Assembly: GCA_051362555.1 (NCBI GenBank)
Contig: CM120640.1
Coordinates: 20,026,001-20,090,000, forward strand
DNA: 64,000 bases
DNA from: Lingula anatina
Taxonomy: Eukaryota; Animalia; Brachiopoda
Reading direction: 5' to 3'
The notes beneath the pieces were generated by a model. That model worked only from the letters and a program-made list of their open reading frames with translations, was not told the origin of the DNA and made no database searches. Each line of letters begins with the position of its first letter. Position 1 is the first letter of the stretch. The position numbers were made by a program, and so were the translations under genes. This document shows, in pieces, positions 14,980 to 64,000 of the stretch.

Positions 14980-15243
14980 TACCGATAAATGCGAAGAGCG
15001 GGATATCTACTTTACATCGTGACAGCCGTCCATGAAGGCCCCTTCAACTCTTGCCCCCTGAGAAACAGTCCCGCACAAAATGGCGCGAACTGCGCATGCA
15101 CACGATTTCGTGGAAAACACTCTATTAGATAAGTATATGCACTCTTTGCCATGCTGTTTGTTGATGATTCTATTGAAAGACTAAACACTCAAAGACTCAA
15201 ATCAATATCAAAGACTTTAAAACATAAGGTGCTCAATTGCCTG

Positions 15244-15583: not shown

Positions 15584-15783
15584 CTGGTTTCCCTATATTG
15601 ATAATGAAAGATATAAATTAAAGGGTTTTATCCCAGGTTTTCCCCAGAGCCTGTCCATAAAGTGTTCTTTTATTAATATGTTTTGCTTTGTTTATATTCT
15701 AAATATTATATGTAGAGTGAATGTCTCCAACATGTTTAATGAAAAAAAAGATGTTTTTTTATTCTGGTAAAAAATGAAGGCAT

Positions 15784-15851
15784 GTTCAGTTAACAAATAT
15801 AATCCCCAGACTTGTTATTTAATTTTAATGGAGTTGCTTGCTTGTGCACTT
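15784..15851 (+). repeat. ~67-bp diverged direct repeat, copy 2
   Basis: Aligns by eye to 13191-13257, with shared cores acaaatataatccccaga and tttaatggagttgctt. Confidence 0.8.

Positions 15852-16617: not shown

Positions 16618-16620
<3 letters not shown>

Positions 16621-16680
<60 letters not shown>
16621..16680. repeat. (AT)30 microsatellite
   Basis: Direct reading, about 100 bp upstream of the giant exon's acceptor. Confidence 0.95.
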
Positions 16681-16683
<3 letters not shown>

Positions 16684-16760
16684 AAATCATGTGAAGAGTA
16701 AAATTAGACATTCACATTCTCAAATCAAGCTATTCTTTATGAATCCACCATCAATAAGAC

Positions 16761-16782
16761 CTTTATTTTCCCTTTATAATAG
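16761..16782 (+). other. 3' splice acceptor of the giant exon
   Basis: Polypyrimidine tract ctttattttccctttataat followed by AG at 16781-16782. An in-frame TAA at 16755-16757 and no ATG before the repeats show that the frame must be entered by splicing. An alternative CAG lies at 16785-16787. Confidence 0.75.
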
Positions 16783-19700
16783 GTCAGATAGTTCAAGGAA
16801 CAAGTGCAACATCATCGGCTGCTGACTCAGTTACAGCTCAGTTCACTGCAGCAGTGACAGACAGTGGTCTCTCTACTGACTCTGCTGCTGTTTCAGCTAC
16901 TGACAGTGCAAGTACTGCAACCTCTGATGTAACATCAACCACAGCTGTAGCATCCACTAAGTCATCCTCCATACTAGCAACTTCTACAACATCAGCTGCT
17001 GACTCAGTTTCAACTCAGTTCACAGCAGCATTGACAGACAGTGGTCTCTCTACTGATTTTGCTGCTCTAACAGCTACTGACAGTGCAAGTACTGCAACTT
17101 CTGATGTAACGTCAACCACAGCTGTCACTACGGGAACAATATCTACCATAACATCAAGTGAGTCATCCTCAATACTGGCAAGTGCTACAACATCAGCTGC
17201 TGACTCAGTTTCAACTCAGTTCACTGCAGCAGTGACAGACACTGGTCTCTCTACTGACTCTGCTGCTGTTTCAGCTACTGACATTGCAAGCAGTGCAACC
17301 TCTGATGTAACGTCAACCACAGCTGTCACTACAGGAACAATATCCACTGAGTCATCCTCCATACTGGCAAGTGCTACAACATCAGCTGCTGACTCAGTTT
17401 CAGCTCAGTTCACTGCAGCTGTGACAGACAGTGGTCTCTCTACTGACTCTGCTGCTGTTTCAGCTACCGACAGTGCCAGTAGTGCAACATCTGATGTAAC
17501 GTCAACCACAGCTGTCATTACGGGAACAATATCTACCATAACATCAAGTGAGTCATCTTCCATACTGGCAAGTGCTACATCATCAGCTGCTGACTCAGTT
17601 TCAACTCGGTTCACTGCATCTGTGACAGACGGTGGTCTTTCTACTGACTCTGTGGCTGTTTCAGCTACTGACAATGCAAGTACTGCAACCTCTGATGTAA
17701 CGTCAACCACAGCTGTAGAATCCAGTGAGTCATCCTCCATACTGGCAACTGCTACAACATCAGCTGCTGACTCAGTTTCAACTCAGTTCACAGCAGCATT
17801 GACAGACAGTGGTCTCTCTACTGATTCTGCTGCTCTATCAGCTACTGACAGTGCAAGTACTGCAACTTCTGATGTAACGTTAACCACAGCTGTCACTATG
17901 GGAACAATATCTACCATAGCATCCACTGAGTCATCCTCCATACTGGCAAGTGCTACAACATCAGCTGCTGACTCAGTTTCAGCTCAGTTCACTGCAGCAG
18001 TGACAGACAGTGGTCTCTCTACTGACTCTGCGGCTATTTCAGCTACTGACAGTGCAAGTACTGCAACCTCTGATGTAACGTCAACCACAGCTGTATCATC
18101 CAGTGAGTCATCCTCCATACTGGCAACTGCTACAACATCAGCTGCTGACTCAGTTTCAACTCAGTTCACAGCAGCATTGACAGACAGTGGTCTCTCTTCT
18201 GATTCTGCTGCTCTATCAGCTACTGACAGTGCAAGTACTGCAACTTCTGATGTAACGTCAACCACAGCTGTCACTACGGGAACAATATCTACTATAGCAT
18301 CCACTGAGTCATCCTCAATACTGGCAAGTGCTACAACATCAGCTGCTGACTCAGTTTCAACTCAGTTCACTGCAGCAGTGACAGACACTGGTCTCTCTAC
18401 TGACTCTGCTGTTGTTTCAGCTACTGACATTGCAAGCAGTGCAACCTCTGATGTTACGTCAACCACAGCTGTCACTACAGGAACAATATCTACCATAGCA
18501 TCCACTGAGTCATCCTCCATACAGGCAAGTGCTACAACATCAGCTGCTGACTCAGTTTCAGCTCAGTTCACTGCAGCAGTGACAGACACTGGTCTCTCTA
18601 CTGACTCTGCTGCTGTTTCAGCTACCGACAGTGCAAGTAGTGCAACATCTGATGTAACGTCGACCACAGCTGTCACTATGGAAACAATATCTACCATAAC
18701 ATCAAGTGAGTCATCTTCCATACTGGCAAGTGCTACATTATCAGCTGCTAACTCAGTTACAGCTCAGTTCCCTGCAGCAGTGACAAACAGTGGTCTCTCT
18801 ACTGACTCTGCTGCTGTTTCAGCTACTGACAGTGCAAGTACTGCAACTTCTGATGTAACGTCAACCACAGCTGTCACTACGGGAACAATATCTACTATAG
18901 CATCCACTGAGTCATCCTCAATACTGGCAAGTGCTACAACATCAGCTGCTGACTCAGTTTCAACTCAGTTCACTGCAGCAGTGACAGACACTGGTCTCTC
19001 TACTGACTCTGCTGTTGTTTCAGCTACTGACATTGCAAGCAGTGCAACCTCTGATGTAACGTCAACCACAGCTGTCACTACAGGAACAATATCTACCATA
19101 GCATCCACTGAGTCATCCTCCATACAGGCAAGTGCTACAACATCAGCTGCTGACTCAGTTTCAGCTCAGTTCACTGCAGCAGTGACAGACAGTGGTCTCT
19201 CTACTGACTCTGCTGCTGTTTCAGCTACCGACAGTGCAAGTAGTGCAACATCTGATGTAACGTCGACTACAGCTGTCACTATGGAAACAATATCTACCAT
19301 AACATCAAGTGAGTCATCTTCCATACTGGCAAGTGCTACATTATCAGCTGCTGACTCAGTTACAGCTCAGTTCCCTGCAGCAGTGACAGACAGTGGTCTC
19401 TCTACTGACTCTGCTGCTGTTTCAGCTACTGACAGTGCAAGTACTGCAACCTCTGTAGTAACGTCAACCACAGCTGTATCATCCAGTGAGTCATCCTCCA
19501 TACTAGCAACTGCTACAACATCAGCTGCTGACTCAGTTTCAACTCAGTTCACAGCAGCATTGACAGACAGTGGTCTCTTTACTGATTCTGCTGCTCTATC
19601 AGCTACTGACAGTGCAAGTACTGCAACTTCTGATGTAACGTTAACCACAGCTGTCACTACGGGAACAATATCTACCATAGCATCCACTGAGTCATCCTCC

Positions 19701-22700
19701 ATACTGGCAAGTGCTACAACATCAGCTGCTGACTCAGTTTCAGCTCAGTTCACTGCAGCAGTGACAGACAGTGGTCTCTCTACTGACTCTGCTGCTGTTT
19801 CAGCTACTGACAGTGCAAGTACTGCAACCTCTGATGTAACGTCAACCACAGCTGTATCATCCAGTGAGTCATCCTCCATACTGGCAACTGCTACAACATC
19901 AGCTGCTGACTCAGTTTCAACTCAGTTCACAGCAGCATTGACAGACAGTGGTCTCTCTTCTGATTCTGCTGCTCTATCAGCTACTGACAGTGCAAGTACT
20001 GCAACTTCTGATGTAACGTCAACCACAGCTGTCACTACGGGAACAATATCTACTATAGCATCCACTGAGTCATCCTCAATACTGGCAAGTGCTACAACAT
20101 CAGCTGCTGACTCAGTTTCAACTCAGTTCACAGCAGCATTGACAGACAGTGGTCTCTCTTCTCATTCTGCTGCTCTATCAGCTACTGACAGTGCAAGTAC
20201 TGCAACTTCTGATGTAACGTCAACCACAGCTGTCACTGCGGGAACAATATCTACCATAGCATCCAGTGAGTCATCCTCCATACTGGCAAGTGCTACAACA
20301 TCAGCTGCTGACTCAGTTTCAACACAGTTCACTGCATCAGTGACAGGCAGTGGTCTTTCTACTGACTCTGCTGCTGTTTCAGCTACTGACATTGCAAGTA
20401 CTGCAACCTCTGATGTAACGTCAACCACAGCTGTAGCATCCAGTGAGTCATCCTCCATACTGGCAAGTGCTACATCATCAGTTGCTGACTCAGTTACAGC
20501 TCAGTTCACTGCAGCAGTGACAGACAGTGGTCTCTCTACTGACTCTGCTGCTGTTTCAGCTACTGACAGTGCAAGTACTGCAACCTCTGATGTAACATCA
20601 ACCACAGCTGTATCATCCAGTGAGTCATCCTCCATACTGGCAACTGCTACAACATCAGCTGCTGACTCAGTTTCAACTCAGTTCACTGCAGCAGTGACAG
20701 ACACTGGTCTCTCTACTGACTCTGCTGTTGTTTCAGCTACTGACATTGCAAGCAGTGCAACCTCTGATGTAACGTCAACCACAGCTGTCACTACAGGAAC
20801 AATATCTACCATAGCATCCACTGAGTCATCCTCCATACAGGCAAGTGCTACAACATCAGCTGCTGACTCAGTTTCAGCTCAGTTCACTGCAGCAGTGACA
20901 AACAGTGGTCTCTCTACTGACTCTGCTGCTGTTTCAGCTACCGACAGTGCAAGTAGTGCAACATCTGATGTAACGTTGACCACAGCTGTCACTATGGAAA
21001 CAATATCTACCATAACATCAAGTGAGTCATCTTCCATACTGGCAAGTGCTACATTATCAGCTGCTGACTCAGTTACAGCTCAGTTCCCTGCAGCAGTGAC
21101 AGACAGTGGTCTCTCTACTGACTCTGCTGCTGTTTCAGCTACTGACAGTGCAAGTACTGCAACCTCTGTAGTAACGTCAACCACAGCTGTATCATCCAGT
21201 GAGTCATCCTCCATACTGGCAACTGCTACAACATCAGCTGCTGACTCAGTTTCAACTCAGTTCACAGCAGCATTGACAGACAGTGGTCTCTCTTCTGATT
21301 CTGCTGCTCTATCAGCTACTGACAGTGCAAGTACTGCAACTTCTGAGTTAACGTCAACCACAGCTGTCACTACGGGAACAATATCTACTATAGCATCCAC
21401 TGAGTCATCCTCAATACTGGCAAGTGCTACAACATCAGCTGCTGACTCAGTTTCAACTCAGTTCACAGCAGCATTGACAGACAGTGGTCTCTCTACTGAT
21501 TCTGCTGCTCTAACAGCTACTGACAGTGCAAGTACTGCAACTTCTGATGTAACGTCAACCACAGCTGTCACTATGGGAACAATATCTACCATAGCATCCA
21601 CTGAGTCATCCTCAATACTGGCAACTGCTACAACAGCAGCTGCTGACTCAATTTCAACTCAGTTCACAGCAGCATTGACAGACAGTGGTCTCTTTACTGA
21701 TTCTGCTGCTCTATCAGCTACTGACAGTGCAAGTACTGCAAGTTCTGATGTAATGTTAACCACAGCTGTCCCTACGGGAACAATATCTACCATAGCATCC
21801 ACTGAGTCATCCTCCATACTGGCAAGTGCTACAACATCAGCTGCTGACTCAGTTTCAGCTCAGCTCACTGCAGCGGTGACAGACAGTGGTCTCTCTACTG
21901 ACTCTGCGGCTATTTCAGCTACTGAGAGTGCAAGTACTGCAACCTCTGATGTAACGTCAACCACAGCTGTATCATCCAGTGAGTCATCCTCCATACTGGC
22001 AACTGCTACAACATCAGCTGCTGACTCAGTTTCAACTCAGTTCACAGCAGCATTGACAGACAGTGGTCTCTCTTCTCATTCTGCTGCTCTATCTGCTACT
22101 GACAGTGCAAGTACTGCAACTTCTGATGTAACGTCAACCACAGCTGTCACTGCGGGAACAATATCTACCATAGCATCCAGTGAGTCATCCTCCATACTGG
22201 CAAGTGCTACAACATCAGCTGCTGACTCAGTTTCAACTCAGTTCACTGCATCAGTGACAGGCAGTGGTCTTTCTACTGACTCTGCTGCTGTTTCAGCTAC
22301 TGACATTGCAAGTACTGCAACATCTGATGTAACGTCAACCACAGCTGTAGCATCCAGTGAGTCATCCTCCATACTGGCAAGTGCTACATCATTAGTTGCT
22401 GACTCAGTTACAGCTCAGTTCACTGCAGCAGTAACAGACAGTGGTCTCTCTACTGACTCTGCTGCTGTTTCAGCTACTGACAGTGCAAGTACTGCAACCT
22501 CTGATGTAACATCAACAACAGCTGTAGCATCCACTGAGTCATCCTCCATACTAGCAACTGCTACAACATCAGCTGCTGACTCAGTTTCAACTCAGTTCAC
22601 AGCAGCATTGACAGACAGTGGTCTCTCTACTGATTCTGCTGCTCTAACATCTACTGACAGTGCAAGTACTACAACTTCTGATGTAACGTCAACCACAGCT

Positions 22701-45866: not shown

Positions 45867-48800
45867 AGTGAGTCATCTTCCATACTAGCAAGTGCTACAT
45901 CATCAGCTGCCGACTCAGTTTCAACTCAGTTCACAGCAGTATTGACAGACAGTGGTCTCTCTACTGATTCTGCTTCTCTATCAGCTACTGACAGTGCAAG
46001 TACTGCAACTTCTGATGTAACGTCAACCACAGTTGTCACGACGGGAACAATATCTACCATAGCATCCAGTGAGTCATCCTCCATACTGGCAAGTGCTACA
46101 ACATCAGCTGCTGAATCAGTTTCAACTCAGTTCACTGCAGCAGTGACAGACAGTGGTCTTTCTTCAGAATCTGCTGCTGTTTCAGCTACTGACATTGCAA
46201 GTAGTGCAACATCTGATATAACGTCAACCATAGTTGTCACTACAGGAACAATATCTACCATAGCATCCAGTGAGTCATCCTCTCTACTGGCAAGTGCTAC
46301 AACATCAGTTGCTGACTCAGTTTCAGCTCAGTTCACTGCAGCATTGACAGACAGTGGTCTCTCTACTGATTCTGCTGCTCTATCAGCTACTGACAGTGCA
46401 AGTACTGCAACCTCTGATGTAACGTCAACCACAGCTGTCACGACGGGAACAATATCTACCATAGCATCCAGTGAGTCATCCTCCATACTGGCAAGTGCTA
46501 CAACATCAGCTGCTGACTCAGTTTCAACTCAGTTTACTACAGCAGTGACAGACAGTGGTCTCTCTACTGACTCTGCTGCTGTTTCAGCTACTGACAGTGC
46601 AAGTACTGCAACCTCTGATGTAACGTCAACCACAGCTGTAGCATCCAGTGAGTCATCCTCCATACTGGCAACTGCTACAACATCAGCTGCTGACTCAGTT
46701 TCAACTCAGTTCACAACAGCATTGACAGACAGTGGTCTCTCTACTGATTCTGCTGCTCTATCAGCTACTGACAGTGCAAGTACTGCAACTTCTGATGTAA
46801 CATCAACCACAGCTGTCACTACGGGAACAATATCTACCATATCATCCAGTGAGTCATCCTCCATACTGACAAGTGCTACAACATCAGCTGCTGACTCAGT
46901 TTCAGCTCAGTTCACTGCAGAAGTGACAGACAGTGGTCTCTCTACTGACTCTGCGGCTATTTCAGCTACTGACAGTGCAAGTACTGCAACCTCTGATGTA
47001 ATGTCAACCACAGCTGTATCATCCAGTGAGTCATCCTCCATACTGGCAACTGCTACAACATCAGCTGCTGACTCAGTTTCAACTCAGTTCACAGCAGCAT
47101 TGACAGACAGTGGTCTCTCTACTGATTCTGCTGCTGTTTCAGCTACTGACATTGCAAGCAGTGCAACCTCTGATGTAACGTCAACCACAGCTGTCACTAC
47201 AGGAACAATATCTACCATAGCATCCAGTGAGTCATCCTCCATACTGGGAACTGCTACAACATCAGCTGCTGACTCAGTTTCAACTCAGTTCACAGCAGCA
47301 TTGACAGACAGTGGTCTCTCTACTGATTCTGCTGCTGTTTCAGCTACTGACATTGCAAGCAGTGCAACCTCTGATGTAACGTCAACCACAGCTGTCACTA
47401 CAGGAACAATATCTACCACAGCATCCAGTGAGTCATCCTCCATACTGGCAAGTGCTACAACATCAGCTGCTGACTCAGTTTCAGCTCAGTTCACTGCAGC
47501 AGTGACACACAGTGGTCTCTCTACTGACTCTGCTGCTGTTTCAGCTACTGACATTGCAAGCAGTGCAACCTCTGATGTAACGTCAACCACAGCTGTCACT
47601 ACAGGAACAATATCTACCATAGCATCCACTGAGTCATCCTCCATACAGGCAAGTGCTACAACATCAGCTGCTGACTCAGTTTCAGCTCAGTTCACTGCAG
47701 CAGTGACAGACAGTGGTCTCTTTACTGATTCTGCTGCTCTATCAGCTACTGACAGTGCAAGTACTGCAACTTCTGAAATAACGTTAACCACAGCTGTCCC
47801 TACGGGAACAATATCTACCATAGCATCCACTGAGTCATCCTCCATTGTGGCAAGTGCTACAACATCAGCTGCTGACTCAGTTTTAACTCAGTTCACTGCA
47901 TTGGTCACAGACAGTGGTTTCTTTACTGACTCTGCTACTGTTACTGCTACTGATAGTGCAAGTACTGCAACCTCTGATGTAACGTTAACCACAGCTGTAG
48001 CATCCACTGAGTCATCCTCCATACTGGCAAGTGCTACAACATCAGCTGCTGACTCAGTTTCAGCTCAGTTCACTGCAGCAGTGACAGACAGTGGTCTCTT
48101 TACTGACTCTGCGGCTATTTCAGCTACTGGCAGTGTAAGTACTGCAACCTCTGATGTAACGTCAACCACAGCTGTATCATCCAGTGAGTCATCCTCCATA
48201 CTGGCAACTGCTACAACATCAGCTGCTGACTCAGTTTCAACTCAGTTCACAGCAGCATTGACAGACAGTGGTCTCTCTACTGATTCTGCTTCTCTATCAG
48301 CTACTGACAGTGCAAGTACTGCAACTTCTGATGTAACGTCAACCACAGCTGTCACGACGGGAACAATATCTACCATAGCATCCACTGAGTCATCCTCCAT
48401 ACAGGCAAGTGCTACAACATCAGCTGCTGAATCAGTTTCAACTCAGTTCACTGCAGCATTGACAGACAGTGGTCTCTCTACTGATTCTGCTGCTCTATCA
48501 GCTACTGACAGTGCAAGTTCTGCAACTTCTGATGTAACGTCAACCACAGCTGTCACGACGGGAACAATATCTACCATAGCATCCACTGAGTCATCCTCCA
48601 TACAGGCAAGTGCTACAACATCAGCTGCTGACTCAGTTTCAGCTCAGTTCACTGCAGCAGTGACAGACAGTGGTCTCTCTACTGATTCTGCTGCTCTATC
48701 AGCTACTGACAGTGCAAGTACTGCAACTTCTGATGTAACGTCAACCACAGCTGTCTCGACGGGAACAATATCTACCATAGCATCCACTGAGTCATCCTCC

Positions 48801-51800
48801 ATTGTGGCAAGTGCTACAACATCAGCTGCTGACTCAGTTTCAAATCAGTTCACTGCAGTAGTGACAGACAGTGGTCTCTCTACTGACTCTGCGGCTATTT
48901 CAGTTACTGACAGTGCAAGTACTGCAACCTCTGATGTAACATCAACCACACCTGTATCATCCAGTGAGTCATCCTCCATACTGGCAACTGCTACAACATC
49001 AGCTGCTGACTTAGTTTCAACTCAGTTCACAGCAGCATTGACAGACAGTGGTCTCTCTTCTGATTCTGCTGCTCTATCAGCTACTGACAGTGCAAGTACT
49101 GCAACTTCTGATGTAACGTCAACCTCAGCTGTCACTACGGGAACAATATCTACCATAGCATCCAGTGAGTCATCCTCCATACTGGCAAGTGCTACAACAT
49201 CAGCTGCTGACTCAGTTTCAACTCAGTTCACTGCATCAGTGACAGGCAGTGGTCTTTCTACTGACTCTGCTGCTGTTTCAGCTACTGACATTGCAAGCAG
49301 TGCAACCTCTGATGTAACGTCAACCACAGCTGTCACTACAGGAACAATATCTACCATAGCATCCACTGAGTCATCCTCCATACTGGCAAGTGCTACATCA
49401 TCAGCTGCTGACTCAGTTTCAACTCAGTTCACTGCATCAGTGACAGACAGTGGTCTTTTTACTGACTCTGCTGCTGTTTCAGCTACTGACAGTGCAAGTA
49501 CTGCAACCTCTGATGTAACCTCAACCACAGCTGTAGAATCCAGTGAGTCATCCTCCATACTGGCAACTGCTACAACATCAGCTGCTGACTCAGTTTCAAC
49601 TCAGTTCACAGCAGCATTGACAGACAGTGGTCTCTCTACTGATTCTGCTTCTCTATCAGCTACTGACAGTGCAAGTACTGCACCTTCTGATGTAACGTCA
49701 ACCACAGTTGTCACGACGGGAATAATATCTACCATAGCATCCAGTGAGTCATCCTCCAGACTGGCAAGTGCTACAACATCAGCTGCTGAATCAGTTTCAA
49801 CTCAGTTCACTGCAGCAGTGACAGACAGTGGTCTTTCTTCAGAATCTGCTGCTGTTTCAGCTACTGACATTGCAAGTAGTGCAACATCTGATATAACGTC
49901 AACCACAGTTGTCACTACAGGAACAATATCTACCATAGCATCCAGTGAGTCATCCTCTCTACTGGCAAATGCTACAACATCAGTTGCTGACTCAGTTTCA
50001 GCTCAGTTCACTGCAGCATTGACAGACAGTGGTCTCTCTACTGATTCTGCTGCTCTATCAGCTACTGACAGTGGAAGTACTGCAACTTCTGATGTAACGT
50101 CAACCACAGCTGTCACGACGGGAACAATATCTACCATAGCATCCAGTGAGTCATCCTCCATACTGGCAAGTGCTACAACATCAGCTGCTGACTCAGTTTC
50201 AACTCAGTTTACTACAGCAGTGACAGACAGTGGTCTCTCTACTGACTCTGCTGCTCTATCATCTTCTGACAGTGCAAGTACTGCAACTTCTGATGTAACG
50301 TCAACCACAGCTGTCACTACAGGAACAATATCTACCATAGCATCCACTGAGTCATCCTCCATACTGGCAAGAGCTACAACATCAGCTGCTGACTCAGTTT
50401 CAACTCAGTTCACTGCAGCTGTGACAGGCACTGGTTTCTCTACTAACTCTGCTGCTGTTTCAGCTACTGACATTGCAAGCAGTGCAACCTCTGATGTAAC
50501 GTCAACCACAGCTGTCACTACAGGAACAATATCTACCATAGCATCCACTGAGTCAACCTCCATACTGGCAAGTGCTACAACATCAGCTGCTGACTCAGTT
50601 TCAGCTCAGTTCACTGCAGCAGTGACAGACAGTGGTCTCTCTACTGATTCTGCTGCTCTATCAGCTACTGACAGTGCAAGTACTGCAACTTCTGATGTAA
50701 CGTCAACCACAGCTGTCACGACGGGAACAATATCTACCATAGCATCCACTGAGTCATCCTCCATTGTGGCAAGTGCTACAACATCAGCTGCTGACTCAGT
50801 TTCAAATCAGTTCACTGCAGTAGTGACAGACAGTGGTCTCTCTACTGACTCTGCGGCTATTTCAGTTACTGACAGTGCAAGTACTGCAACCTCTGATGTA
50901 ACATCAACCACACCTGTATCATCCAGTGAGTCATCCTCCATACTGGCAACTGCTACAACATCAGCTGCTGACTTAGTTTCAACTCAGTTCACAGCAGCAT
51001 TGACAGACAGTGGTCTCTCTTCTGATTCTGCTGCTCTATCAGCTACTGACAGTGCAAGTACTGCAACTTCTGATGTAACGTCAACCTCAGCTGTCACTAC
51101 GGGAACAATATCTACCATAGCATCCAGTGAGTCATCCTCCATACTGGCAAGTGCTACAACATCAGCTGCTGACTCAGTTTCAACTCAGTTCACTGCATCA
51201 GTGACAGGCAGTGGTCTTTCTACTGACTCTGCTGCTGTTTCAGCTACTGACATTGCAAGCAGTGCAACCTCTGATGTAACGTCAACCACAGCTGTCACTA
51301 CAGGAACAATATCTACCATAGCATCCACTGAGTCATCCTCCATACTGGCAAGTGCTACATCATCAGCTGCTGACTCAGTTTCAACTCAGTTCACTGCATC
51401 AGTGACAGACAGTGGTCTTTTTACTGACTCTGCTGCTGTTTCAGCTACTGACAGTGCAAGTACTGCAACCTCTGATGTAACCTCAACCACAGCTGTAGAA
51501 TCCAGTGAGTCATCCTCCATACTGGCAACTGCTACAACATCAGCTGCTGACTCAGTTTCAACTCAGTTCACAGCAGCATTGACAGACAGTGGTCTCTCTA
51601 CTGATTCTGCTTCTCTATCAGCTACTGACAGTGCAAGTACTGCACCTTCTGATGTAACGTCAACCACAGTTGTCACGACGGGAATAATATCTACCATAGC
51701 ATCCAGTGAGTCATCCTCCAGACTGGCAAGTGCTACAACATCAGCTGCTGAATCAGTTTCAACTCAGTTCACTGCAGCAGTGACAGACAGTGGTCTTTCT

Positions 51801-54800
51801 TCAGAATCTGCTGCTGTTTCAGCTACTGACATTGCAAGTAGTGCAACATCTGATATAACGTCAACCACAGTTGTCACTACAGGAACAATATCTACCATAG
51901 CATCCAGTGAGTCATCCTCTCTACTGGCAAATGCTACAACATCAGTTGCTGACTCAGTTTCAGCTCAGTTCACTGCAGCATTGACAGACAGTGGTCTCTC
52001 TACTGATTCTGCTGCTCTATCAGCTACTGACAGTGGAAGTACTGCAACTTCTGATGTAACGTCAACCACAGCTGTCACGACGGGAACAATATCTACCATA
52101 GCATCCAGTGAGTCATCCTCCATACTGGCAAGTGCTACAACATCAGCTGCTGACTCAGTTTCAACTCAGTTTACTACAGCAGTGACAGACAGTGGTCTCT
52201 CTACTGACTCTGCTGCTCTATCATCTTCTGACAGTGCAAGTACTGCAACTTCTGATGTAACGTCAACCACAGCTGTCACTACAGGAACAATATCTACCAT
52301 AGCATCCACTGAGTCATCCTCCATACTGGCAAGAGCTACAACATCAGCTGCTGACTCAGTTTCAACTCAGTTCACTGCAGCTGTGACAGGCACTGGTTTC
52401 TCTACTAACTCTGCTGCTGTTTCAGCTACTGACATTGCAAGCAGTGCAACCTCTGATGTAACGTCAACCACAGCTGTCACTACAGGAACAATATCTACCA
52501 TAGCATCCACTGAGTCAACCTCCATACTGGCAAGTGCTACAACATCAGCTGCTGACTCAGTTTCAGCTCAGTTCACTGCAGCAGTGACAGACAGTGGTCT
52601 CTCTACTGACTCTGCTGCTGTTTCAGCTACTGACAGTGCAAGTACTGCAACCTCTGATGTAACGTCAACCACAGCTGTAGCATCCAGTGAGTCATCCTCC
52701 ATACTGGCAACTGCTACAACATCAGCTGCTGACTCAGTTTCAACTCAGTTCACAACAGCATTGACAGACAGTGGTCTCTCTACTGATTCTGCTGCTCTAT
52801 CAGCTACTGACAGTGCAAGTACTGCAACTTCTGATGTAACATCAACCACAGCTGTCACTACAGGAACAATATCTACCATATCATCCAGTGAGTCATCCTC
52901 CATACTGACAAGTGCTACAACATCACCTACAGACTCACTTTCAACTCAGTTCACAGCAGCATTGACAGACAGTGGTCTCCCTACTGACTCTGCTGCTGTT
53001 TCAGCTACTGACAGTGCAAGTACTGCAACCTCTGATGTAACGTCAACCACAGCTGTAGCATCCAGTGAGTCATCCTCCATACTGGCAACTGCTACAACAT
53101 CAGCTGCTGACTCAGTTTCAACTCAGTTCACAACAGCATTGACAGACAGTGGTCTCTCTACTGATTCTGCTGCTCTATCAGCTACTGACAGTGCAAGTAC
53201 TGCAACTTCTGATGTAACATCAACCACAGCTGTCACTACGGGAACAATATCTACCATAGCATCCAGTGAGTCATCCTCCATACTGACAAGTGCTACAACA
53301 TCACCTACTGACTCACTTTCAACTCAGTTCACAGCAGCATTGACAGACAGTGGTCTCTCTACTGACTCTGCTGCTGTTTCAGCTACGGACATTGCAAGTA
53401 GTGCAACATCTGATATAACGTCAACCACAGTTGTCACTACAGGAACAATATCTACCATAGCATCCACTGAGTCATCCTCCATACAGGCAAGTGCTACAAC
53501 ATCAGCTGCTGAATCAGTTTCAACTCAGTTCACTGCAGCATTGACAGACAGTGGTCTCTCTACTGATTCTGCTGCTCTATCAGCTACTGACAGTGCAAGT
53601 TCTGCAACTTCTGATGTAACGTCAACCACAGCTGTCACGACGGGAACAATATCTACCATAGCATCCACTGAGTCATCCTCCATACAGGCAAGTGCTACAA
53701 CATCAGCTGCTGACTCAGTTTCAGCTCAGTTCACTGCAGCAGTGACAGACAGTGGTCTCTCTACTGATTCTGCTGCTCTATCAGCTACTGACAGTGCAAG
53801 TACTGCAACTTCTGATGTAACGTCAACCACAGCTGTCACGACGGGAACAATATCTACCATAGCATCCACTGAGTCATCCTCCATTGTGGCAAGTGCTACA
53901 ACATCAGCTGCTGACTCAGTTTCAAATCAGTTCACTGCAGTAGTGACAGACAGTGGTCTCTCTACTGACTCTGCGGCTATTTCAGTTACTGACAGTGCAA
54001 GTACTGCAACCTCTGATGTAACATCAACCACACCTGTATCATCCAGTGAGTCATCCTCCATACTGGCAACTGCTACAACATCAGCTGCTGACTTAGTTTC
54101 AATTCAGTTCACTGCATCAGTGACAGGCAGTGGTCTTTCTACTGACTCTGCTGCTGTTTCAGCTACTGACATTGCAAGCAGTGCAACCTCTGATGTAACG
54201 TCAACCACAGCTGTCACTACAGGAACAATATCTACCATAGCATCCACTGAGTCATCCTCCATACTGGCAAGTGCTACATCATCAGCTGCTGACTCAGTTT
54301 CAACTCAGTTCACTGCATCAGTGACAGACAGTGGTCTTTTTACTGACTCTGCTGCTGTTTCAGCTACTGACAGTGCAAGTACTGCAACCTCTGATGTAAC
54401 CTCAACCACAGCTGTAGAATCCAGTGAGTCATCCTCCATACTGGCAACTGCTACAACATCAGCTGCTGACTCAGTTTCAACTCAGTTCACAGCAGCATTG
54501 ACAGACAGTGGTCTCTCTACTGATTCTGCTTCTCTATCAGCTACTGACAGTGCAAGTACTGCACCTTCTGATGTAACGTCAACCACAGTTGTCACGACGG
54601 GAATAATATCTACCATAGCATCCAGTGAGTCATCCTCCAGACTGGCAAGTGCTACAACATCAGCTGCTGAATCAGTTTCAACTCAGTTCACTGCAGCAGT
54701 GACAGACAGTGGTCTTTCTTCAGAATCTGCTGCTGTTTCAGCTACTGACATTGCAAGTAGTGCAACATCTGATATAACGTCAACCACAGTTGTCACTACA

Positions 54801-57800
54801 GGAACAATATCTACCATAGCATCCAGTGAGTCATCCTCTCTACTGGCAAATGCTACAACATCAGTTGCTGACTCAGTTTCAGCTCAGTTCACTGCAGCAT
54901 TGACAGACAGTGGTCTCTCTACTGATTCTGCTGCTCTATCAGCTACTGACAGTGGAAGTACTGCAACTTCTGATGTAACGTCAACCACAGCTGTCACGAC
55001 GGGAACAATATCTACCATAGCATCCAGTGAGTCATCCTCCATACTGGCAAGTGCTACAACATCAGCTGCTGACTCAGTTTCAACTCAGTTTACTACAGCA
55101 GTGACAGACAGTGGTCTCTCTACTGACTCTGCTGCTCTATCATCTTCTGACAGTGCAAGTACTGCAACTTCTGATGTAACGTCAACCACAGCTGTCACTA
55201 CAGGAACAATATCTACCATAGCATCCACTGAGTCATCCTCCATACTGGCAAGAGCTACAACATCAGCTGCTGACTCAGTTTCAACTCAGTTCACTGCAGC
55301 TGTGACAGGCACTGGTTTCTCTACTAACTCTGCTGCTGTTTCAGCTACTGACATTGCAAGCAGTGCAACCTCTGATGTAACGTCAACCACAGCTGTCACT
55401 ACAGGAACAATATCTACCATAGCATTCACTGAGTCAACCTCCATACTGGCAAGTGCTACAACATCAGCTGCTGACTCAGTTTCAGCTCAGTTCACTGCAG
55501 CAGTGACAGACAGTGGTCTCTCTACTGACTCTGCTGCTGTTTCAGCTACTGACAGTGCAAGTACTGCAACCTCTGATGTAACGTCAACCACAGCTGTAGC
55601 ATCCAGTGAGTCATCCTCCATACTGGCAACTGCTACAACATCAGCTGCTGACTCAGTTTCAACTCAGTTCACAACAGCATTGACAGACAGTGGTCTCTCT
55701 ACTGATTCTGCTGCTCTATCAGCTACTGACAGTGCAAGTACTGCAACTTCTGATGTAACATCAACCACAGCTGTCACTACAGGAACAATATCTACCATAT
55801 CATCCAGTGAGTCATCCTCCATACTGACAAGTGCTACAACATCACCTACAGACTCACTTTCAACTCAGTTCACAGCAGCATTGACAGACAGTGGTCTCCC
55901 TACTGACTCTGCTGCTGTTTCAGCTACTGACAGTGCAAGTACTGCAACCTCTGATGTAACGTCAACCACAGCTGTAGCATCCAGTGAGTCATCCTCCATA
56001 CTGGCAACTGCTACAACATCAGCTGCTGACTCAGTTTCAACTCAGTTCACAACAGCATTGACAGACAGTGGTCTCTCTACTGATTCTGCTGCTCTATCAG
56101 CTACTGACAGTGCAAGTACTGCAACTTCTGATGTAACATCAACCACAGCTGTCACTACGGGAACAATATCTACCATAGCATCCAGTGAGTCATCCTCCAT
56201 ACTGACAAGTGCTACAAAATCACCTACTGACTCACTTTCAACTCAGTTCACAGCAGCATTGACAGACAGTGGTCTCTCTACTGACTCTGCTGCTGTTTCA
56301 GCTACGGACATTGCAAGTAGTGCAACATCTGATATAACGTCAACCACAGTTGTCACTACAGGAACAATATCTACCATAGCATCCACTGAGTCATCCTCCA
56401 TACAGGCAAGTGCTACAACATCAGCTGCTGAATCAGTTTCAACTCAGTTCACTGCAGCATTGACAGACAGTGGTCTCTCTACTGATTCTGCTGCTCTATC
56501 AGCTACTGACAGTGCAAGTTCTGCAACTTCTGATGTAACGTCAACCACAGCTGTCACGACGGGAACAATATCTACCATAGCATCCACTGAGTCATCCTCC
56601 ATACAGGCAAGTGCTACAACATCAGCTGCTGACTCAGTTTCAGCTCAGTTCACTGCAGCAGTGACAGACAGTGGTCTCTCTACTGATTCTGCTGCTCTAT
56701 CAGCTACTGACAGTGCAAGTACTGCAACTTCTGATGTAACGTCAACCACAGCTGTCACGACGGGAACAATATCTACCATAGCATCCACTGAGTCATCCTC
56801 CATTGTGGCAAGTGCTACAACATCAGCTGCTGACTCAGTTTCAAATCAGTTCACTGCAGTAGTGACAGACAGTGGTCTCTCTACTGACTCTGCGGCTATT
56901 TCAGTTACTGACAGTGCAAGTACTGCAACCTCTGATGTAACATCAACCACACCTGTATCATCCAGTGAGTCATCCTCCATACTGGCAACTGCTACAACAT
57001 CAGCTGCTGACTTAGTTTCAACTCAGTTCACAGCAGCATTGACAGACAGTGGTCTCTCTTCTGATTCTGCTGCTCTATCAGCTACTGACAGTGCAAGTAC
57101 TGCAACTTCTGATGTAACGTCAACCTCAGCTGTCACTACGGGAACAATATCTACCATAGCATCCAGTGAGTCATCCTCCATACTGGCAAGTGCTACAACA
57201 TCAGCTGCTGACTCAGTTTCAACTCAGTTCACTGCATCAGTGACAGGCAGTGGTCTTTCTACTGACTCTGCTGCTGTTTCAGCTACTGACATTGCAAGCA
57301 GTGCAACCTCTGATGTAACGTCAACCACAGCTGTCACTACAGGAACAATATCTACCATAGCATCCACTGAGTCATCCTCCATACTGGCAAGTGCTACATC
57401 ATCAGCTGCTGACTCAGTTTCAACTCAGTTCACTGCATCAGTGACAGACAGTGGTCTTTTTACTGACTCTGCTGCTGTTTCAGCTACTGACAGTGCAAGT
57501 ACTGCAACCTCTGATGTAACCTCAACCACAGCTGTAGAATCCAGTGAGTCATCCTCCATACTGGCAACTGCTACAACATCAGCTGCTGACTCAGTTTCAA
57601 CTCAGTTCACAGCAGCATTGACAGACAGTGGTCTCTCTACTGATTCTGCTTCTCTATCAGCTACTGACAGTGCAAGTACTGCACCTTCTGATGTAACGTC
57701 AACCACAGTTGTCACGACGGGAATAATATCTACCATAGCATCCAGTGAGTCATCCTCCAGACTGGCAAGTGCTACAACATCAGCTGCTGAATCAGTTTCA

Positions 57801-60800
57801 ACTCAGTTCACTGCAGCAGTGACAGACAGTGGTCTTTCTTCAGAATCTGCTGCTGTTTCAGCTACTGACATTGCAAGTAGTGCAACATCTGATATAACGT
57901 CAACCACAGTTGTCACTACAGGAACAATATCTACCATAGCATCCAGTGAGTCATCCTCTCTACTGGCAAATGCTACAACATCAGTTGCTGACTCAGTTTC
58001 AGCTCAGTTCACTGCAGCATTGACAGACAGTGGTCTCTCTACTGATTCTGCTGCTCTATCAGCTACTGACAGTGGAAGTACTGCAACTTCTGATGTAACG
58101 TCAACCACAGCTGTCACGACGGGAACAATATCTACCATAGCATCCAGTGAGTCATCCTCCATACTGGCAAGTGCTACAACATCAGCTGCTGACTCAGTTT
58201 CAACTCAGTTTACTACAGCAGTGACAGACAGTGGTCTCTCTACTGACTCTGCTGCTCTATCATCTTCTGACAGTGCAAGTACTGCAACTTCTGATGTAAC
58301 GTCAACCACAGCTGTCACTACAGGAACAATATCTACCATAGCATCCACTGAGTCATCCTCCATACTGGCAAGAGCTACAACATCAGCTGCTGACTCAGTT
58401 TCAACTCAGTTCACTGCAGCTGTGACAGGCACTGGTTTCTCTACTAACTCTGCTGCTGTTTCAGCTACTGACATTGCAAGCAGTGCAACCTCTGATGTAA
58501 CGTCAACCACAGCTGTCACTACAGGAACAATATCTACCATAGCATTCACTGAGTCAACCTCCATACTGGCAAGTGCTACAACATCAGCTGCTGACTCAGT
58601 TTCAGCTCAGTTCACTGCAGCAGTGACAGACAGTGGTCTCTCTACTGACTCTGCTGCTGTTTCAGCTACTGACAGTGCAAGTACTGCAACCTCTGATGTA
58701 ACGTCAACCACAGCTGTAGCATCCAGTGAGTCATCCTCCATACTGGCAACTGCTACAACATCAGCTGCTGACTCAGTTTCAACTCAGTTCACAACAGCAT
58801 TGACAGACAGTGGTCTCTCTACTGATTCTGCTGCTCTATCAGCTACTGACAGTGCAAGTACTGCAACTTCTGATGTAACATCAACCACAGCTGTCACTAC
58901 AGGAACAATATCTACCATATCATCCAGTGAGTCATCCTCCATACTGACAAGTGCTACAACATCACCTACAGACTCACTTTCAACTCAGTTCACAGCAGCA
59001 TTGACAGACAGTGGTCTCCCTACTGACTCTGCTGCTGTTTCAGCTACTGACAGTGCAAGTACTGCAACCTCTGATGTAACGTCAACCACAGCTGTAGCAT
59101 CCAGTGAGTCATCCTCCATACTGGCAACTGCTACAACATCAGCTGCTGACTCAGTTTCAACTCAGTTCACAACAGCATTGACAGACAGTGGTCTCTCTAC
59201 TGATTCTGCTGCTCTATCAGCTACTGACAGTGCAAGTACTGCAACTTCTGATGTAACATCAACCACAGCTGTCACTACGGGAACAATATCTACCATAGCA
59301 TCCAGTGAGTCATCCTCCATACTGACAAGTGCTACAAAATCACCTACTGACTCACTTTCAACTCAGTTCACAGCAGCATTGACAGACAGTGGTCTCTCTA
59401 CTGACTCTGCTGCTGTTTCAGCTACGGACATTGCAAGTAGTGCAACATCTGATATAACGTCAACCACAGTTGTCACTACAGGAACAATATCTACCATAGC
59501 ATCCACTGAGTCATCCTCCATACAGGCAAGTGCTACAACATCAGCTGCTGAATCAGTTTCAACTCAGTTCACTGCAGCATTGACAGACAGTGGTCTCTCT
59601 ACTGATTCTGCTGCTCTATCAGCTACTGACAGTGCAAGTTCTGCAACTTCTGATGTAACGTCAACCACAGCTGTCACGACGGGAACAATATCTACCATAG
59701 CATCCACTGAGTCATCCTCCATACAGGCAAGTGCTACAACATCAGCTGCTGACTCAGTTTCAGCTCAGTTCACTGCAGCAGTGACAGACAGTGGTCTCTC
59801 TACTGATTCTGCTGCTCTATCAGCTACTGACAGTGCAAGTACTGCAACTTCTGATGTAACGTCAACCACAGCTGTCACGACGGGAACAATATCTACCATA
59901 GCATCCACTGAGTCATCCTCCATTGTGGCAAGTGCTACAACATCAGCTGCTGACTCAGTTTCAAATCAGTTCACTGCAGTAGTGACAGACAGTGGTCTCT
60001 CTACTGACTCTGCGGCTATTTCAGTTACTGACAGTGCAAGTACTGCAACCTCTGATGTAACATCAACCACACCTGTATCATCCAGTGAGTCATCCTCCAT
60101 ACTGGCAACTGCTACAACATCAGCTGCTGACTTAGTTTCAACTCAGTTCACAGCAGCATTGACAGACAGTGGTCTCTCTTCTGATTCTGCTGCTCTATCA
60201 GCTACTGACAGTGCAAGTACTGCAACTTCTGATGTAACGTCAACCTCAGCTGTCACTACGGGAACAATATCTACCATAGCATCCAGTGAGTCATCCTCCA
60301 TACTGGCAAGTGCTACAACATCAGCTGCTGACTCAGTTTCAACTCAGTTCACTGCATCAGTGACAGGCAGTGGTCTTTCTACTGACTCTGCTGCTGTTTC
60401 AGCTACTGACATTGCAAGCAGTGCAACCTCTGATGTAACGTCAACCACAGCTGTCACTACAGGAACAATATCTACCATAGCATCCACTGAGTCATCCTCC
60501 ATACTGGCAAGTGCTACATCATCAGCTGCTGACTCAGTTTCAACTCAGTTCACTGCATCAGTGACAGACAGTGGTCTTTTTACTGACTCTGCTGCTGTTT
60601 CAGCTACTGACAGTGCAAGTACTGCAACCTCTGATGTAACCTCAACCACAGCTGTAGAATCCAGTGAGTCATCCTCCATACTGACAACTGCTACAACATC
60701 AGCTGCTGACTCAGTTTCAACTCAGTTCACAGCAGCATTGACAGACAGTGGTCTCTCTACTGATTCTGCTTCTCTATCAGCTACTGACAGTGCAAGTACT

Positions 60801-63800
60801 GCACCTTCTGATGTAACGTCAACCACAGTTGTCACGACGGGAATAATATCTACCATAGCATCCAGTGAGTCATCCTCCGGACTGGCAAGTGCTACAACAT
60901 CAGCTGCTGAATCAGTTTCAACTCAGTTCACTGCAGCAGTGACAGACAGTGGTCTTTCTTCAGAATCTGCTGCTGTTTCAGCTACTGACATTGCAAGTAG
61001 TGCAACATCTGATATAACGTCAACCACAGTTGTCACTACAGGAACAATATCTACCATAGCATCCAGTGAGTCATCCTCTCTACTGGCAAATGCTACAACA
61101 TCAGTTGCTGACTCAGTTTCAGCTCAGTTCACTGCAGCATTGACAGACAGTGGTCTCTCTACTGATTCTGCTGCTCTATCAGCTACTGACAGTGGAAGTA
61201 CTGCAACTTCTGATGTAACGTCAACCACAGCTGTCACGACGGGAACAATATCTACCATAGCATCCAGTGAGTCATCCTCCATACTGGCAAGTGCTACAAC
61301 ATCAGCTGCTGACTCAGTTTCAACTCAGTTTACTACAGCAGTGACAGACAGTGGTCTCTCTACTGACTCTGCTGCTCTATCATCTTCTGACAGTGCAAGT
61401 ACTGCAACTTCTGATGTAACGTCAACCACAGCTGTCACTACAGGAACAATATCTACCATAGCATCCACTGAGTCATCCTCCATACTGGCAAGAGCTACAA
61501 CATCAGCTGCTGACTCAGTTTCAACTCAGTTCACTGCAGCTGTGACAGGCACTGGTTTCTCTACTAACTCTGCTGCTGTTTCAGCTACTGACATTGCAAG
61601 CAGTGCAACCTCTGATGTAACGTCAACCACAGCTGTCACTACAGGAACAATATCTACCATAGCATCCACTGAGTCAACCTCCATACTGGCAAGTGCTACA
61701 ACATCAGCTGCTGACTCAGTTTCAGCTCAGTTCACTGCAGCAGTGACAGACAGTGGTCTCTCTACTGACTCTGCTGCTGTTTCAGCTACTGACAGTGCAA
61801 GTACTGCAACCTCTGATGTAACGTCAACCACAGCTGTAGCATCCAGTGAGTCATCCTCCATACTGGCAACTGCTACAACATCAGCTGCTGACTCAGTTTC
61901 AACTCAGTTCACAACAGCATTGACAGACAGTGGTCTCTCTACTGATTCTGCTGCTCTATCAGCTACTGACAGTGCAAGTACTGCAACTTCTGATGTAACA
62001 TCAACCACAGCTGTCACTACAGGAACAATATCTACCATATCATCTAGTGAGTCATCCTCCATACTGACAAGTGCTACAACATCACCTACAGACTCACTTT
62101 CAACTCAGTTCACAGCAGCATTGACAGACAGTGGTCTCCCTACTGACTCTGCTGCTGTTTCAGCTACTGACAGTGCAAGTACTGCAACCTCTGATGTAAC
62201 GTCAACCACAGCTGTAGCATCCAGTGAGTCATCCTCCATACTGGCAACTGCTACAACATCAGCTGCTGACTCAGTTTCAACTCAGTTCACAACAGCATTG
62301 ACAGACAGTGGTCTCTCTACTGATTCTGCTGCTCTATCAGCTACTGACAGTGCAAGTACTGCAACTTCTGATGTAACATCAACCACAGCTGTCACTACGG
62401 GAACAATATCTACCATAGCATCCAGTGAGTCATCCTCCATACTGACAAGTGCTACAACATCACCTACTGACTCACTTTCAACTCAGTTCACAGCAGCATT
62501 GACAGACAGTGGTCTCTCTACTGACTCTGCTGCTGTTTCAGCTACGGACATTGCAAGTAGTGCAACATCTGATATAACGTCAACCACAGTTGTCACTACA
62601 GGAACAATATCTACCATAGCATCCAGTGAGTCATCCTCTCTACTGGCAAGTGCTACAACATCAGTTGCTGACTCAGTTTCAGCTCAGTTCACTGCAGCAT
62701 TGACAGACAGTGGTCTCTCTACTGATTCTGCTGCTCTATCAGCTACTGACAGTGCAAGTACTGCAACTTCTGATGTAACGTCAAGCACAGCTGTCACGAC
62801 TGGAACAATATGTACCATAGCATCCAGTGAGTCATCCTCCATACTGGCAAGTGCTACAACATCAGCTGCTGACTCAGTTTCAACTCAGTTCACTGCAGCA
62901 GTGACAGACAGTGGTCTCTCTACTGATTCTGCTGCTCTATCATCTTCTGACAGTGCAAGTACTGCAACTTCTGATGTAACGTCAACCACAGCTGTCACTA
63001 CAGGAACAATATCTACCATATCATCCAGTGAGTCATCCTCCATACTGAGAAGTGCTACAACATCACCTACAGACTCACTTTCAACTCAGTTCACAGCAGC
63101 ATTGACAGACAGTGGTCTCCCTACTGACTCTGCTGCTGTTTCAGCTACTGACAGTGCAAGTACTGCAACCTCTGATGTAACGTCAACCACAGCTGTAGCA
63201 TCCAGTGAGTCATCCTCCATACTGGCAACTGCTACAACATCAGCTGCTGACTCAGTTTCAACTCAGTTCACAACAGCATTGACAGACAGTGGTCTCTCTA
63301 CTGATTCTGCTGCTCTATCAGCTACTGACAGTGCAAGTACTGCAACTTCTGATGTAACGTCAACCTCAGCTGTCACTACGGGAACAATATCTACCATAGC
63401 ATCCAGTGAGTCATCCTCCATACTGGCAAGTGCTACAACATCAGCTGCTGACTCAGTTTCAACTCAGTTCACTGCATCAGTGACAGGCAGTGGTCTTTCT
63501 ACTGACTCTGCTGCTGTTTCAGCTACTGACATTGCAAGCAGTGCAACCTCTGATGTAACGTCAACCACAGCTGTCACTACAGGAACAATATCTACCATAG
63601 CATCCACTGAGTCATCCTCCATACTGGCAAGTGCTACATCATCAGCTGCTGACTCAGTTTCAACTCAGTTCACTGCATCAGTGACAGACAGTGGTCTTTT
63701 TACTGACTCTGCTGCTGTTTCAGCTACTGACAGTGCAAGTACTGCAACCTCTGATGTAACCTCAACCACAGCTGTAGAATCCAGTGAGTCATCCTCCATA

Positions 63801-64000
63801 CTGGCAACTGCTACAACATCAGCTGCTGACTCAGTTTCAACTCAGTTTACAGCAGCATTGACAGACAGTGGTCTCTCTACTGATTCTGCTTCTCTATCAG
63901 CTACTGACAGTGCAAGTACTGCACCTTCTGATGTAACGTCAACCACAGTTGTCACGACGGGAATAATATCTACCATAGCATCCAGTGAGTCATCCTCCAG
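45867..64000 (+). CDS. Giant exon, part 2: same-frame continuation of the repeat protein (~6040 codons), open at the window end
   Basis: The same units continue in the same frame (codon starts at 16854 and 63951 are both 0 mod 3). The ORF track reports no terminated ORF here, consistent with no further stop. Coding status depends on whether the TGA at 45864 is real. Confidence 0.7.
48360..62620 (+). repeat. Higher-order repeat, period 3120 bp (12 long + 4 short units)
   Basis: The diagnostic SNQF variant recurs at 48843, 50805, 53925, 56844 and 59964. Spacings are 1962, 3120, 2919 (=3120-201) and 3120. Rows 55081, 58201 and 61321 are identical. Confidence 0.9.

What the first reader, a model, noticed from the sequence alone, without database searches (positions are those of the whole stretch)
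16783..64000. A single exon of >47 kb encoding >15,700 aa of Pro-poor, acidic Ser/Thr/Ala repeats
Seen: one frame from the acceptor at 16782 to the window end, with no intron-like sequence, no frameshift and one stop. Units have 5 Asp + 1 Glu, almost no Lys/Arg/Pro, and no Trp or Tyr that I saw. Established: mucin PTS domains typically sit in single large exons but are Pro-rich, and the largest well-known vertebrate coding exons are around 20 kb. Inference: an exceptionally large secreted or membrane-tethered glycoprotein that is not a canonical PTS mucin. Short-read assemblies and annotation would probably collapse or miss it.
Basis: partly seen in the sequence, partly recalled or inferred. 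Interest (0 to 1): 0.85.

Follow-up and report, generated by a model that had tools for sequence, protein, structure and literature searches.

The report
Giant proline-free MUC4-like mucin exon
A lamp-shell (Lingula) gene has a transcribed stretch of at least 47,000 bases, likely one unbroken exon, encoding 245 repeats that are acidic, half serine/threonine and almost free of proline; it is likely the missing, probably sugar-coated stalk of a MUC4-type cell-surface mucin, which makes it an unusually large example of a known kind of gene.

Summary
One frame is open from an acceptor at 16782 to the window end (15,738 codons, 245 units of 59/67 aa, one TGA, no frameshift). It behaves as coding: every indel is a multiple of 3, and stops and Trp/Tyr/Cys are depleted, while most other amino-acid changes are tolerated. 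It is expressed: 1 of 8 RNA runs laid gave 4,417 sense-strand reads, with depth starting in the bin that opens at 16783; the other seven gave 0-5. The only hit among 1.84 billion proteins is a Lingula anatina gene model that starts, without a signal peptide, in degenerate copies of this unit. It continues with NIDO, AMOP-like, vWD (GDPH), EGF repeats and a membrane helix. So the array is most likely the stalk of a MUC4-like tethered mucin; the physical link lies beyond 64000 and is inferred. The stalk fails the PTS proline criterion (0.4%), but two related models also have proline-poor acidic repeats. The size is no record: human MUC12 alleles reach 23,080 aa. The stop looks like a recent allele or an assembly error.

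The parts
16760..16782 (+). Splice acceptor (pyrimidine tract, TAG), phase 1
   Evidence: Sequence. Run X6 has depth 0 over 16684-16782 and mean depth 11 in the bin 16783-16793. The upstream partner exon was not among the loose ends shown.
16783..64000 (+). Giant exon, open to the window end: 15,738 codons, about 1.5 MDa of unmodified polypeptide; 3' end outside the window
   Evidence: sense-strand RNA
16818..64000 (+). Tandem array of 245 units (67-aa long and 59-aa short forms, 93-96% identical to consensus on average); 49% S+T, net charge -0.089 per residue; one S-G or T-G position per unit with Gly in 239 of 239 scored units
45864..45866 (+). Single in-frame TGA after 9,693 codons of the exon; the only difference between this unit and its sister unit at 39153
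36429..46081 (+). Recent internal duplication with offset 6,552 bp (about 36.4-39.5 kb copied at about 43.0-46.1 kb); the second copy carries the stop
   Evidence: exact runs of 1,163 and 483 bp; 5 mismatches over 44500-46081
48757..63800 (+). Young higher-order repeats (offsets 3,120, 2,919 and 1,962 bp; one 3,460-bp exact match at 54104-57563 versus +3,120)

Best explanation
The array is a transcribed, frame-preserving repeat exon that likely encodes the giant O-glycosylated stalk of a MUC4-like, membrane-tethered mucin of the brachiopod Lingula, whose C-terminal part is likely the RefSeq model LOC106179759. Shown: open frame, frame-preserving evolution, sense-strand RNA that begins at the acceptor, strong restriction to one sample, and homology of the unit to the start of that model. 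Inferred: an upstream exon supplies a signal peptide; the array runs past 64000, degenerates and continues into NIDO, AMOP, vWD, Ca-binding EGF repeats, a membrane helix and a short tail. By analogy to MUC4, the precursor would cleave itself at GDPH into a huge glycosylated subunit held on an anchored subunit. About 7,700 Ser/Thr would be candidate O-glycan sites and about 1,400 Asp/Glu add negative charge, giving an extended, hydrated brush of micrometre length (about 4 um at 0.25 nm per residue, a recalled figure) on a secretory epithelium, probably also shed into mucus. Selection acts on the frame and bulk composition rather than on exact sequence; length changes by unequal crossing-over in multi-unit blocks. 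The TGA is likely a recent loss-of-function or truncating allele of this haplotype, or an assembly error.
For: Frame: 5 distinct indel events among 244 units (24, 12, 12, 12, +6 nt), all multiples of 3; two further in-frame variants seen only in RNA (39-nt skip, 9 reads; 171-nt unit, 5 reads); no small indel at 1% or more of reads. Of 191 single-base changes, 1 made a stop (5.7 expected, P=0.02) and 1 made W/Y/C (8.3 expected, P=0.002). RNA: X6 4,417 of 8.39 million records (526 per million), about 3,600 versus 3-4 depth by strand; allele frequencies at 29 listed variants match the array (r=0.99) and fit a 0.59/0.43 mix of units before and after the stop, whose shares are 0.61/0.39. Unit-to-exon-start depth of about 330 (95% range 180-660) fits 245 or more units in the message. 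Homology: 1 hit among 1.84 billion proteins, XP_013418963.1 (E 5e-5). Its first 110 residues align in register with the unit (score 255; 0 of 2000 composition-preserving shuffles reached it, mean 139); the 10 other homologues tested gave z of 0.8 or less. Domains: NIDO 444-655, C8-3_MUC4 1048-1079, 12-13 EGF_CA; GDPH at 816 and a hydrophobic helix at 2078-2098; 812-1045 matches Pfam-called vWD regions of P0003 and P0004 (E 2e-56, 8e-33) and 690-813 matches the corresponding region before GDPH in SUSD2, which Pfam calls AMOP (E 3e-7). MUC4 has a large uninterrupted repeat, then NIDO, AMOP, vWD with GDPH, EGF and TM (PMC6780288, passages). [quoted passage not shown]
Against: The join between the array and the MUC4-type domains was not seen: no genome is held and the model's repeats are only about 43-45% identical to the unit, so it could be a paralogue. 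No signal-peptide exon was found in 1-16782. The frame as assembled has a stop. Amino-acid changes are close to neutral (133 non-synonymous observed, 138.6 expected), and the 23 changes private to the part after the stop give no test of selection. Pfam did not call AMOP or VWD directly on the model. Glycosylation, translation and tissue are untested; run labels are coded. The RNA is from another, unknown individual and was laid on one collapsed unit, so it does not prove one continuous message. A 3,460-bp exact repeat could reflect assembly uncertainty in copy number.
Confidence: 0.72

Rival explanations
1. The array is coding and mucin-like but belongs to a different gene than LOC106179759: a paralogue sharing an old repeat, or a secreted protein with another C-terminus.
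For: Only about 43-45% identity to the model's repeats; Lingula is reported to have 15 MUC4-like genes; the 3' end is outside the window.
Against: The model begins at a Met inside the repeat with no signal peptide although it has a type I membrane helix, as expected of a 5'-truncated model. No other protein matched, and two Lingula paralogues carry unrelated repeats.
Confidence: 0.12
2. The stalk is mainly a proteoglycan core: the Asp-Ser-Gly site in most units would carry a glycosaminoglycan chain, making a tethered or shed mega-proteoglycan for the GAG-rich shell layer or the burrow mucus.
For: 233 SG and 203 DSG sites; Gly invariant in 239 of 239 units. Xylosylation uses Ser-Gly near acidic residues (PMC8418075, passages). 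The primary shell layer is described as mostly GAG (PMC13425148 section 8). Only 1 of 29 tryptic peptides is 7-40 aa long, so standard shell proteomics would miss the stalk.
Against: 7 of 67 columns are invariant, about what chance gives (some 9 expected at 2 changes per column); the Ser varies in 21 of 239 units. The site does not match the nematode motif E/D-G/A-S-G and has no acidic cluster; the same review warns that motifs alone do not identify proteoglycans. The model's accessions were not found in the one shell-proteome supplement searched.
Confidence: 0.1
3. The TGA at 45864 is the normal end of the protein, giving a secreted 9,700-residue mucin with the rest of the array as untranslated tail.
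For: The stop is in the assembly; splice variants of human MUC4 give secreted forms.
Against: The stop is one base different from its sister unit in a recent duplication; 6,044 codons after it stay open, with no frameshift.
Confidence: 0.04
4. It is a transcribed non-coding satellite whose frame is open by chance.
For: 608 of 5000 shuffled units have an open frame; synonymous excess is small (57 versus 46.7).
Against: All indels in frame, stop and W/Y/C depletion, RNA start at a canonical acceptor, strand specificity, and in-register homology to an annotated protein.
Confidence: 0.02

Closest known systems
Human MUC4 (PMC6780288 passages; PMC13345508 section 6)
   Same: Very large uninterrupted Ser/Thr repeat followed (in the likely linked model) by NIDO, AMOP, vWD with GDPH, EGF and TM.
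   Different: Unit of 59/67 aa instead of 16; proline 0.4%; acidic; at least 47 kb versus 27.8 kb for the longest human allele; 12-13 Ca-binding EGFs instead of up to three; an extra Cys-rich region (159-392) before NIDO.
Lingula anatina LOC106179759, XP_013418963.1 / XP_013418955.1
   Same: N-terminal 110 residues are degenerate copies of this unit.
   Different: The model lacks the array and a signal peptide; it is automatic, named 'uncharacterized', and its link to this window is inferred.
Lophotrochozoan MUC4-like models: Physella acuta 'mucin-4-like' (P0009) and Lingula LOC106168022 (P0005)
   Same: NIDO, GDPH and EGF repeats together with a proline-poor (0.8% and 0.3%), acidic Thr/Ser/Ala tandem repeat; in P0009 it follows a signal-peptide-like start.
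   Different: Unrelated repeat sequence (z below 0); only 300-400 residues as modelled; in P0005 the repeat lies near the membrane.
Human MUC12 (PMC13345508, passages and section 6)
   Same: One giant repeat exon; alleles of 4,677 to 23,080 aa bracket the size seen here.
   Different: SEA-type tethered mucin (family layout from PMC9080433 passages), not NIDO-AMOP-vWD.
Spider glue AgSp1 (PMC6553539, passages) and flatworm Mlig-ap2 (PMC6410801, passages)
   Same: Giant repetitive invertebrate glycoproteins (42,270 bp coding; 14,794 aa).
   Different: AgSp1 is split over two similar-sized exons and is about 23% Pro and 21% Gly; Mlig-ap2 has 221/255-aa repeats between vWD/TIL and TSP1 domains. No sequence similarity to either was found or tested directly.

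Membership tests
Canonical PTS mucin domain | Ser+Thr at least 40% (PMC4948705, passage) | tested here: met
   49.2%
Canonical PTS mucin domain | Proline often above 5% | tested here: not met
   0.37%
Canonical PTS mucin domain | Tandem repeats in a large exon, varying in copy number | tested here: met
   245 units and higher-order duplications; RNA holds unit variants absent from the window. Length variation between individuals itself not measured.
Canonical PTS mucin domain | Dense O-glycosylation | not testable with these tools
   Needs glycoproteomics
MUC4-like tethered mucins | NIDO domain | tested here: met
   In the likely linked model P0001, 444-655, E 2e-24; not in the window
MUC4-like tethered mucins | AMOP domain | tested here: inconclusive
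   No direct Pfam call; 690-813 matches the region before GDPH of SUSD2 P0004, which has two Pfam AMOP stretches, E 3e-7
MUC4-like tethered mucins | vWD with GDPH cleavage motif and C8-3 | tested here: met
   GDPH at 816; match to Pfam-called vWD of P0003/P0004; C8-3_MUC4 E 6e-9. In P0001 only.
MUC4-like tethered mucins | EGF repeats, one membrane helix, short tail | tested here: met
   in P0001 only
MUC4-like tethered mucins | Repeat exon and these domains in one transcript | not testable with these tools
   Window ends inside the array; no genome held. Inferred from homology of the unit to P0001 1-110.
MUC4-like tethered mucins | N-terminal signal peptide | tested here: inconclusive
   No convincing signal-peptide exon in 1-16782 by simple scans; it may lie further upstream
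Chondroitin/heparan proteoglycan core | Ser-Gly with a nearby acidic cluster | tested here: inconclusive
   203 DSG sites, but no acidic cluster and no E/D-G/A-S-G motif
Folded repeat protein (solenoid type) | Confident regular fold of the unit | tested here: inconclusive
   AlphaFold2 on 4 units: mean pLDDT 31 with a shallow 12-row alignment; no PDB sequence match

The most novel reading that the evidence does not exclude
A membrane-tethered mucin-proteoglycan hybrid of more than 2 MDa of polypeptide, with over 230 glycosaminoglycan attachment sites on a proline-free acidic stalk: the so far unseen core protein of the GAG-rich matrix of the Lingula shell or burrow lining, invisible to trypsin proteomics.
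Probability: 0.1. Interest if true: 0.75.

Novelty: new variant of a known kind. Interest (0 to 1): 0.42.

Why it matters
It supplies the likely missing 85-90% of a Lingula MUC4-like gene and shows that such invertebrate models can hide stalks of tens of kilobases. Mucin finders that require proline, and proteomics that relies on trypsin, would both miss this stalk. One published shell proteome found no secreted acidic proteins (PMC4595640, passage); this protein is acidic and has 28 Lys/Arg in 15,738 residues, so that blank does not exclude it. The gene gives a concrete target for asking what makes brachiopod mucus or the glycan-rich shell layer. The class itself, giant repeat exons in tethered mucins, is known.

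Tried and rejected
No own genome is held, so the 3' end could not be read. No RNA holder was listed by the index; nine runs came by species label, of which eight were laid and X8 was not. Runs X2, X4 and X5 gave 0 reads without a control for the organism, so they are weak negatives. Word-based protein searches with 400 residues of the array found nothing at 701-2000 aa or 220-700 aa. Pfam on the array gave only a sub-threshold hit; PDB gave none. The Atlas gave no answer. Folds of four units and of P0001 159-392 were uninformative (pLDDT 31 and 32), and Pfam found nothing in 159-392, so a Sushi plus C-type-lectin reading of that region is by eye only. Scans for upstream coding exons and tblastn of 12 homologues against 1-16900 found no signal-peptide exon. 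My first guess of an echinoderm, from recalled motif habits, was dropped. Short unit motifs were absent from two Lingula supplements and gave 7 unrelated papers; searches listed no paper describing this exon (listings only). An adhesive pairing with the Lys/Arg-rich giant noted earlier in this genome was considered; nothing here tests it.
Full report
1. Observation. Six-frame translation shows one frame with a single stop between 16758 and 64000, whereas the other five carry 20-149 stops per 4 kb across the array. A pyrimidine tract and TAG end at 16782 and give a phase-1 exon. The 15,738 codons are 26.6% Ser, 22.6% Thr, 19.0% Ala, 7.2% Asp, 0.37% Pro, with no Trp or Tyr. The array has 245 unit starts; of 244 complete units 155 are 201 bp, 84 are 177 bp, 3 are 189 bp and 2 are 207 bp, and 153 are distinct.

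2. Is it coding? An open frame alone proves little: 608 of 5000 shuffled 201-mers are open in some frame when repeated. Indels are more telling. Aligning all 244 units to the long consensus gave five distinct events (24, 12, 12, 12 and +6 nt), all in frame. Among 148 distinct units (239 scored; the 5 odd-length units left out), 191 of 193 changes between codon alleles were single-base: 57 synonymous (46.7 expected), 133 non-synonymous (138.6), 1 to stop (5.7; P=0.02); changes to Trp, Tyr or Cys were 1 against 8.3 (P=0.002). This is selection for an open frame and a bulk composition, with little constraint on exact residues, as expected for a mucin-type stalk (inference).

3. Is it expressed? 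The index listed no RNA holder, but nine runs with the same species label. Eight were laid on 16684-16994, which holds the intron end, the exon start and one unit; 6-30% of each run was read. X6 gave 4,417 of 8.39 million records; X1 2, X3 5, X7 2, X9 1; X2, X4 and X5 none. In X6 the depth was about 3,600 on one orientation and 3-4 on the other, which in most stranded libraries means RNA of the + strand. Depth was 0 over 16684-16782 and 11 in the bin starting at 16783, consistent with use of the acceptor; the partner exon was not among the six loose ends shown (21 were not shown). No small indel reached 1% of reads. Joints of known content were 39, 171, 177 and 180 nt; three joints of 147-149 nt with unknown letters between are reads crossing long units. 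The 39-nt and 171-nt forms and one loose end have no copy in the window, so they come from beyond it or from another allele. Allele frequencies at 29 listed variants within the first 132 bases of the unit match the array (r=0.99; 74 weaker rows were not shown) and fit 0.59 of units before the stop and 0.43 after it. The ratio of unit depth to exon-start depth, about 330 (180-660), fits 245 or more units per message. Because reads were collapsed on one unit and come from another individual, this supports but does not prove one continuous transcript.

4. What gene is it? Word-based searches found nothing. A full HMMER scan of 1.84 billion proteins gave exactly one hit, P0001 (E 5e-5), named Lingula anatina XP_013418963.1, LOC106179759, 2,237 aa. 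This agrees with earlier unreviewed notes that call this genome Lingula. The first 110 residues of P0001 align in register with the unit; the score of 255 was reached by 0 of 2000 shuffles of either side, and ten other homologues scored z of 0.8 or less. The model starts at a Met inside the repeat and has no signal peptide by eye, yet has a membrane helix at 2078-2098, so it is probably cut at its 5' end (inference). After the repeats come a Cys-rich region (159-392, unassigned), NIDO (444-655), an AMOP-like region, GDPH at 816 opening a vWD, C8-3_MUC4 and 12-13 Ca-binding EGFs. That is the order described for MUC4 (PMC6780288, passages) and for cnidarian mucin4-like proteins (PMC9080433, passages). 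The link to the window is inferred, since no genome is held.

5. Mechanism. Shown: frame, selection pattern, RNA, homology. Inferred from MUC4 biology: entry to the secretory path by an unseen signal peptide, dense O-glycosylation of the stalk, self-cleavage at GDPH, display at the cell surface and shedding into mucus. The stalk has no membrane-like segment (maximum 19-residue hydropathy 1.2), net charge -0.089 per residue and 12 N-glycan sequons, and AlphaFold2 gave no confident fold. Unmodified it falls on the compact side of the charge-hydropathy boundary, so an extended form would depend on glycans or other modifications; there are also 250 S-x-E motifs, one per unit, of the kind recalled for Fam20C phosphorylation. 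[quoted passage not shown] Which tissue X6 is remains unknown.

6. The stop. The unit with TGA differs by that one base from its sister unit 6,552 bp upstream, in a block with 5 mismatches over about 1.6 kb. It is therefore recent or an error. The 6,044 codons after it stay open, but the 23 changes private to that part are too few to test selection. If real, this haplotype would give a truncated, unanchored product or a decayed message (inference).

7. Comparison. S+T meets the PTS threshold and proline fails it (PMC4948705, passage), so I do not file the stalk as a canonical PTS domain; it works like one. Proline-poor acidic repeats also occur in a Physella 'mucin-4-like' model and in Lingula LOC106168022. 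The size exceeds the longest human MUC4 allele (27,843 bp) but lies within the range of human MUC12 (up to 23,080 aa) (PMC13345508, passages and section 6). Spider AgSp1 has 42,270 coding bases in two exons (PMC6553539, passages). An unreviewed note of this scan reports a 128.7-kb exon in an octopod MUC4-like gene (not checked). Lineage-specific gain of S/T repeats is a described route to mucins (PMC9417175, passages). Searches listed no paper on this exon; most subscription papers are outside the library.

8. Verdict. A real, expressed, very large repeat exon, most likely the hidden stalk of a MUC4-like mucin: a new variant of a known kind, interest 0.42. The bolder reading, a proteoglycan core with one Asp-Ser-Gly per unit that trypsin proteomics cannot see, is not excluded but has only motif support.

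Noticed in passing
window 14631-14921 (-): THAP-domain remnant (Pfam PF05485, E 1e-6), probably from a decayed DNA transposon upstream of the exon; short transposon-like frames at 13385-13752 (+) gave no significant Pfam hit.
   Followed up: partly
window 15240-15587: MITE-like element: 61-nt inverted arms, 89% complementary, 226 nt apart; also a 57-nt direct repeat at 13190 and 15783.
   Followed up: no
window 1-16782: CpG observed/expected falls from 0.86 (1-13600) to 0.34 (13600-16782) and 0.16 in the array, as expected for invertebrate gene-body methylation starting near 13-14 kb (inference).
   Followed up: partly
window 9386-9590 and 12881-13024 (+): Unverified upstream exon candidates: CCAAT and TATAAAAG at 9386/9409 with a GTAAGT donor at 9584; a 144-nt segment between an acceptor and a GTAAGT donor that is open in the phase 1-1 frame but lacks a signal peptide.
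   Followed up: partly
window 16783-64000: 154 GT[AG]AG words, mostly CCA/GTGAGT once per one or two units, could act as cryptic donors; no joint from them was among those listed.
   Followed up: partly
P0003 (Lingula LOC106158645): A paralogue with two NIDO-vWD(GDPH) modules separated by EGF repeats and a 570-residue Ser-rich linker.
   Followed up: no
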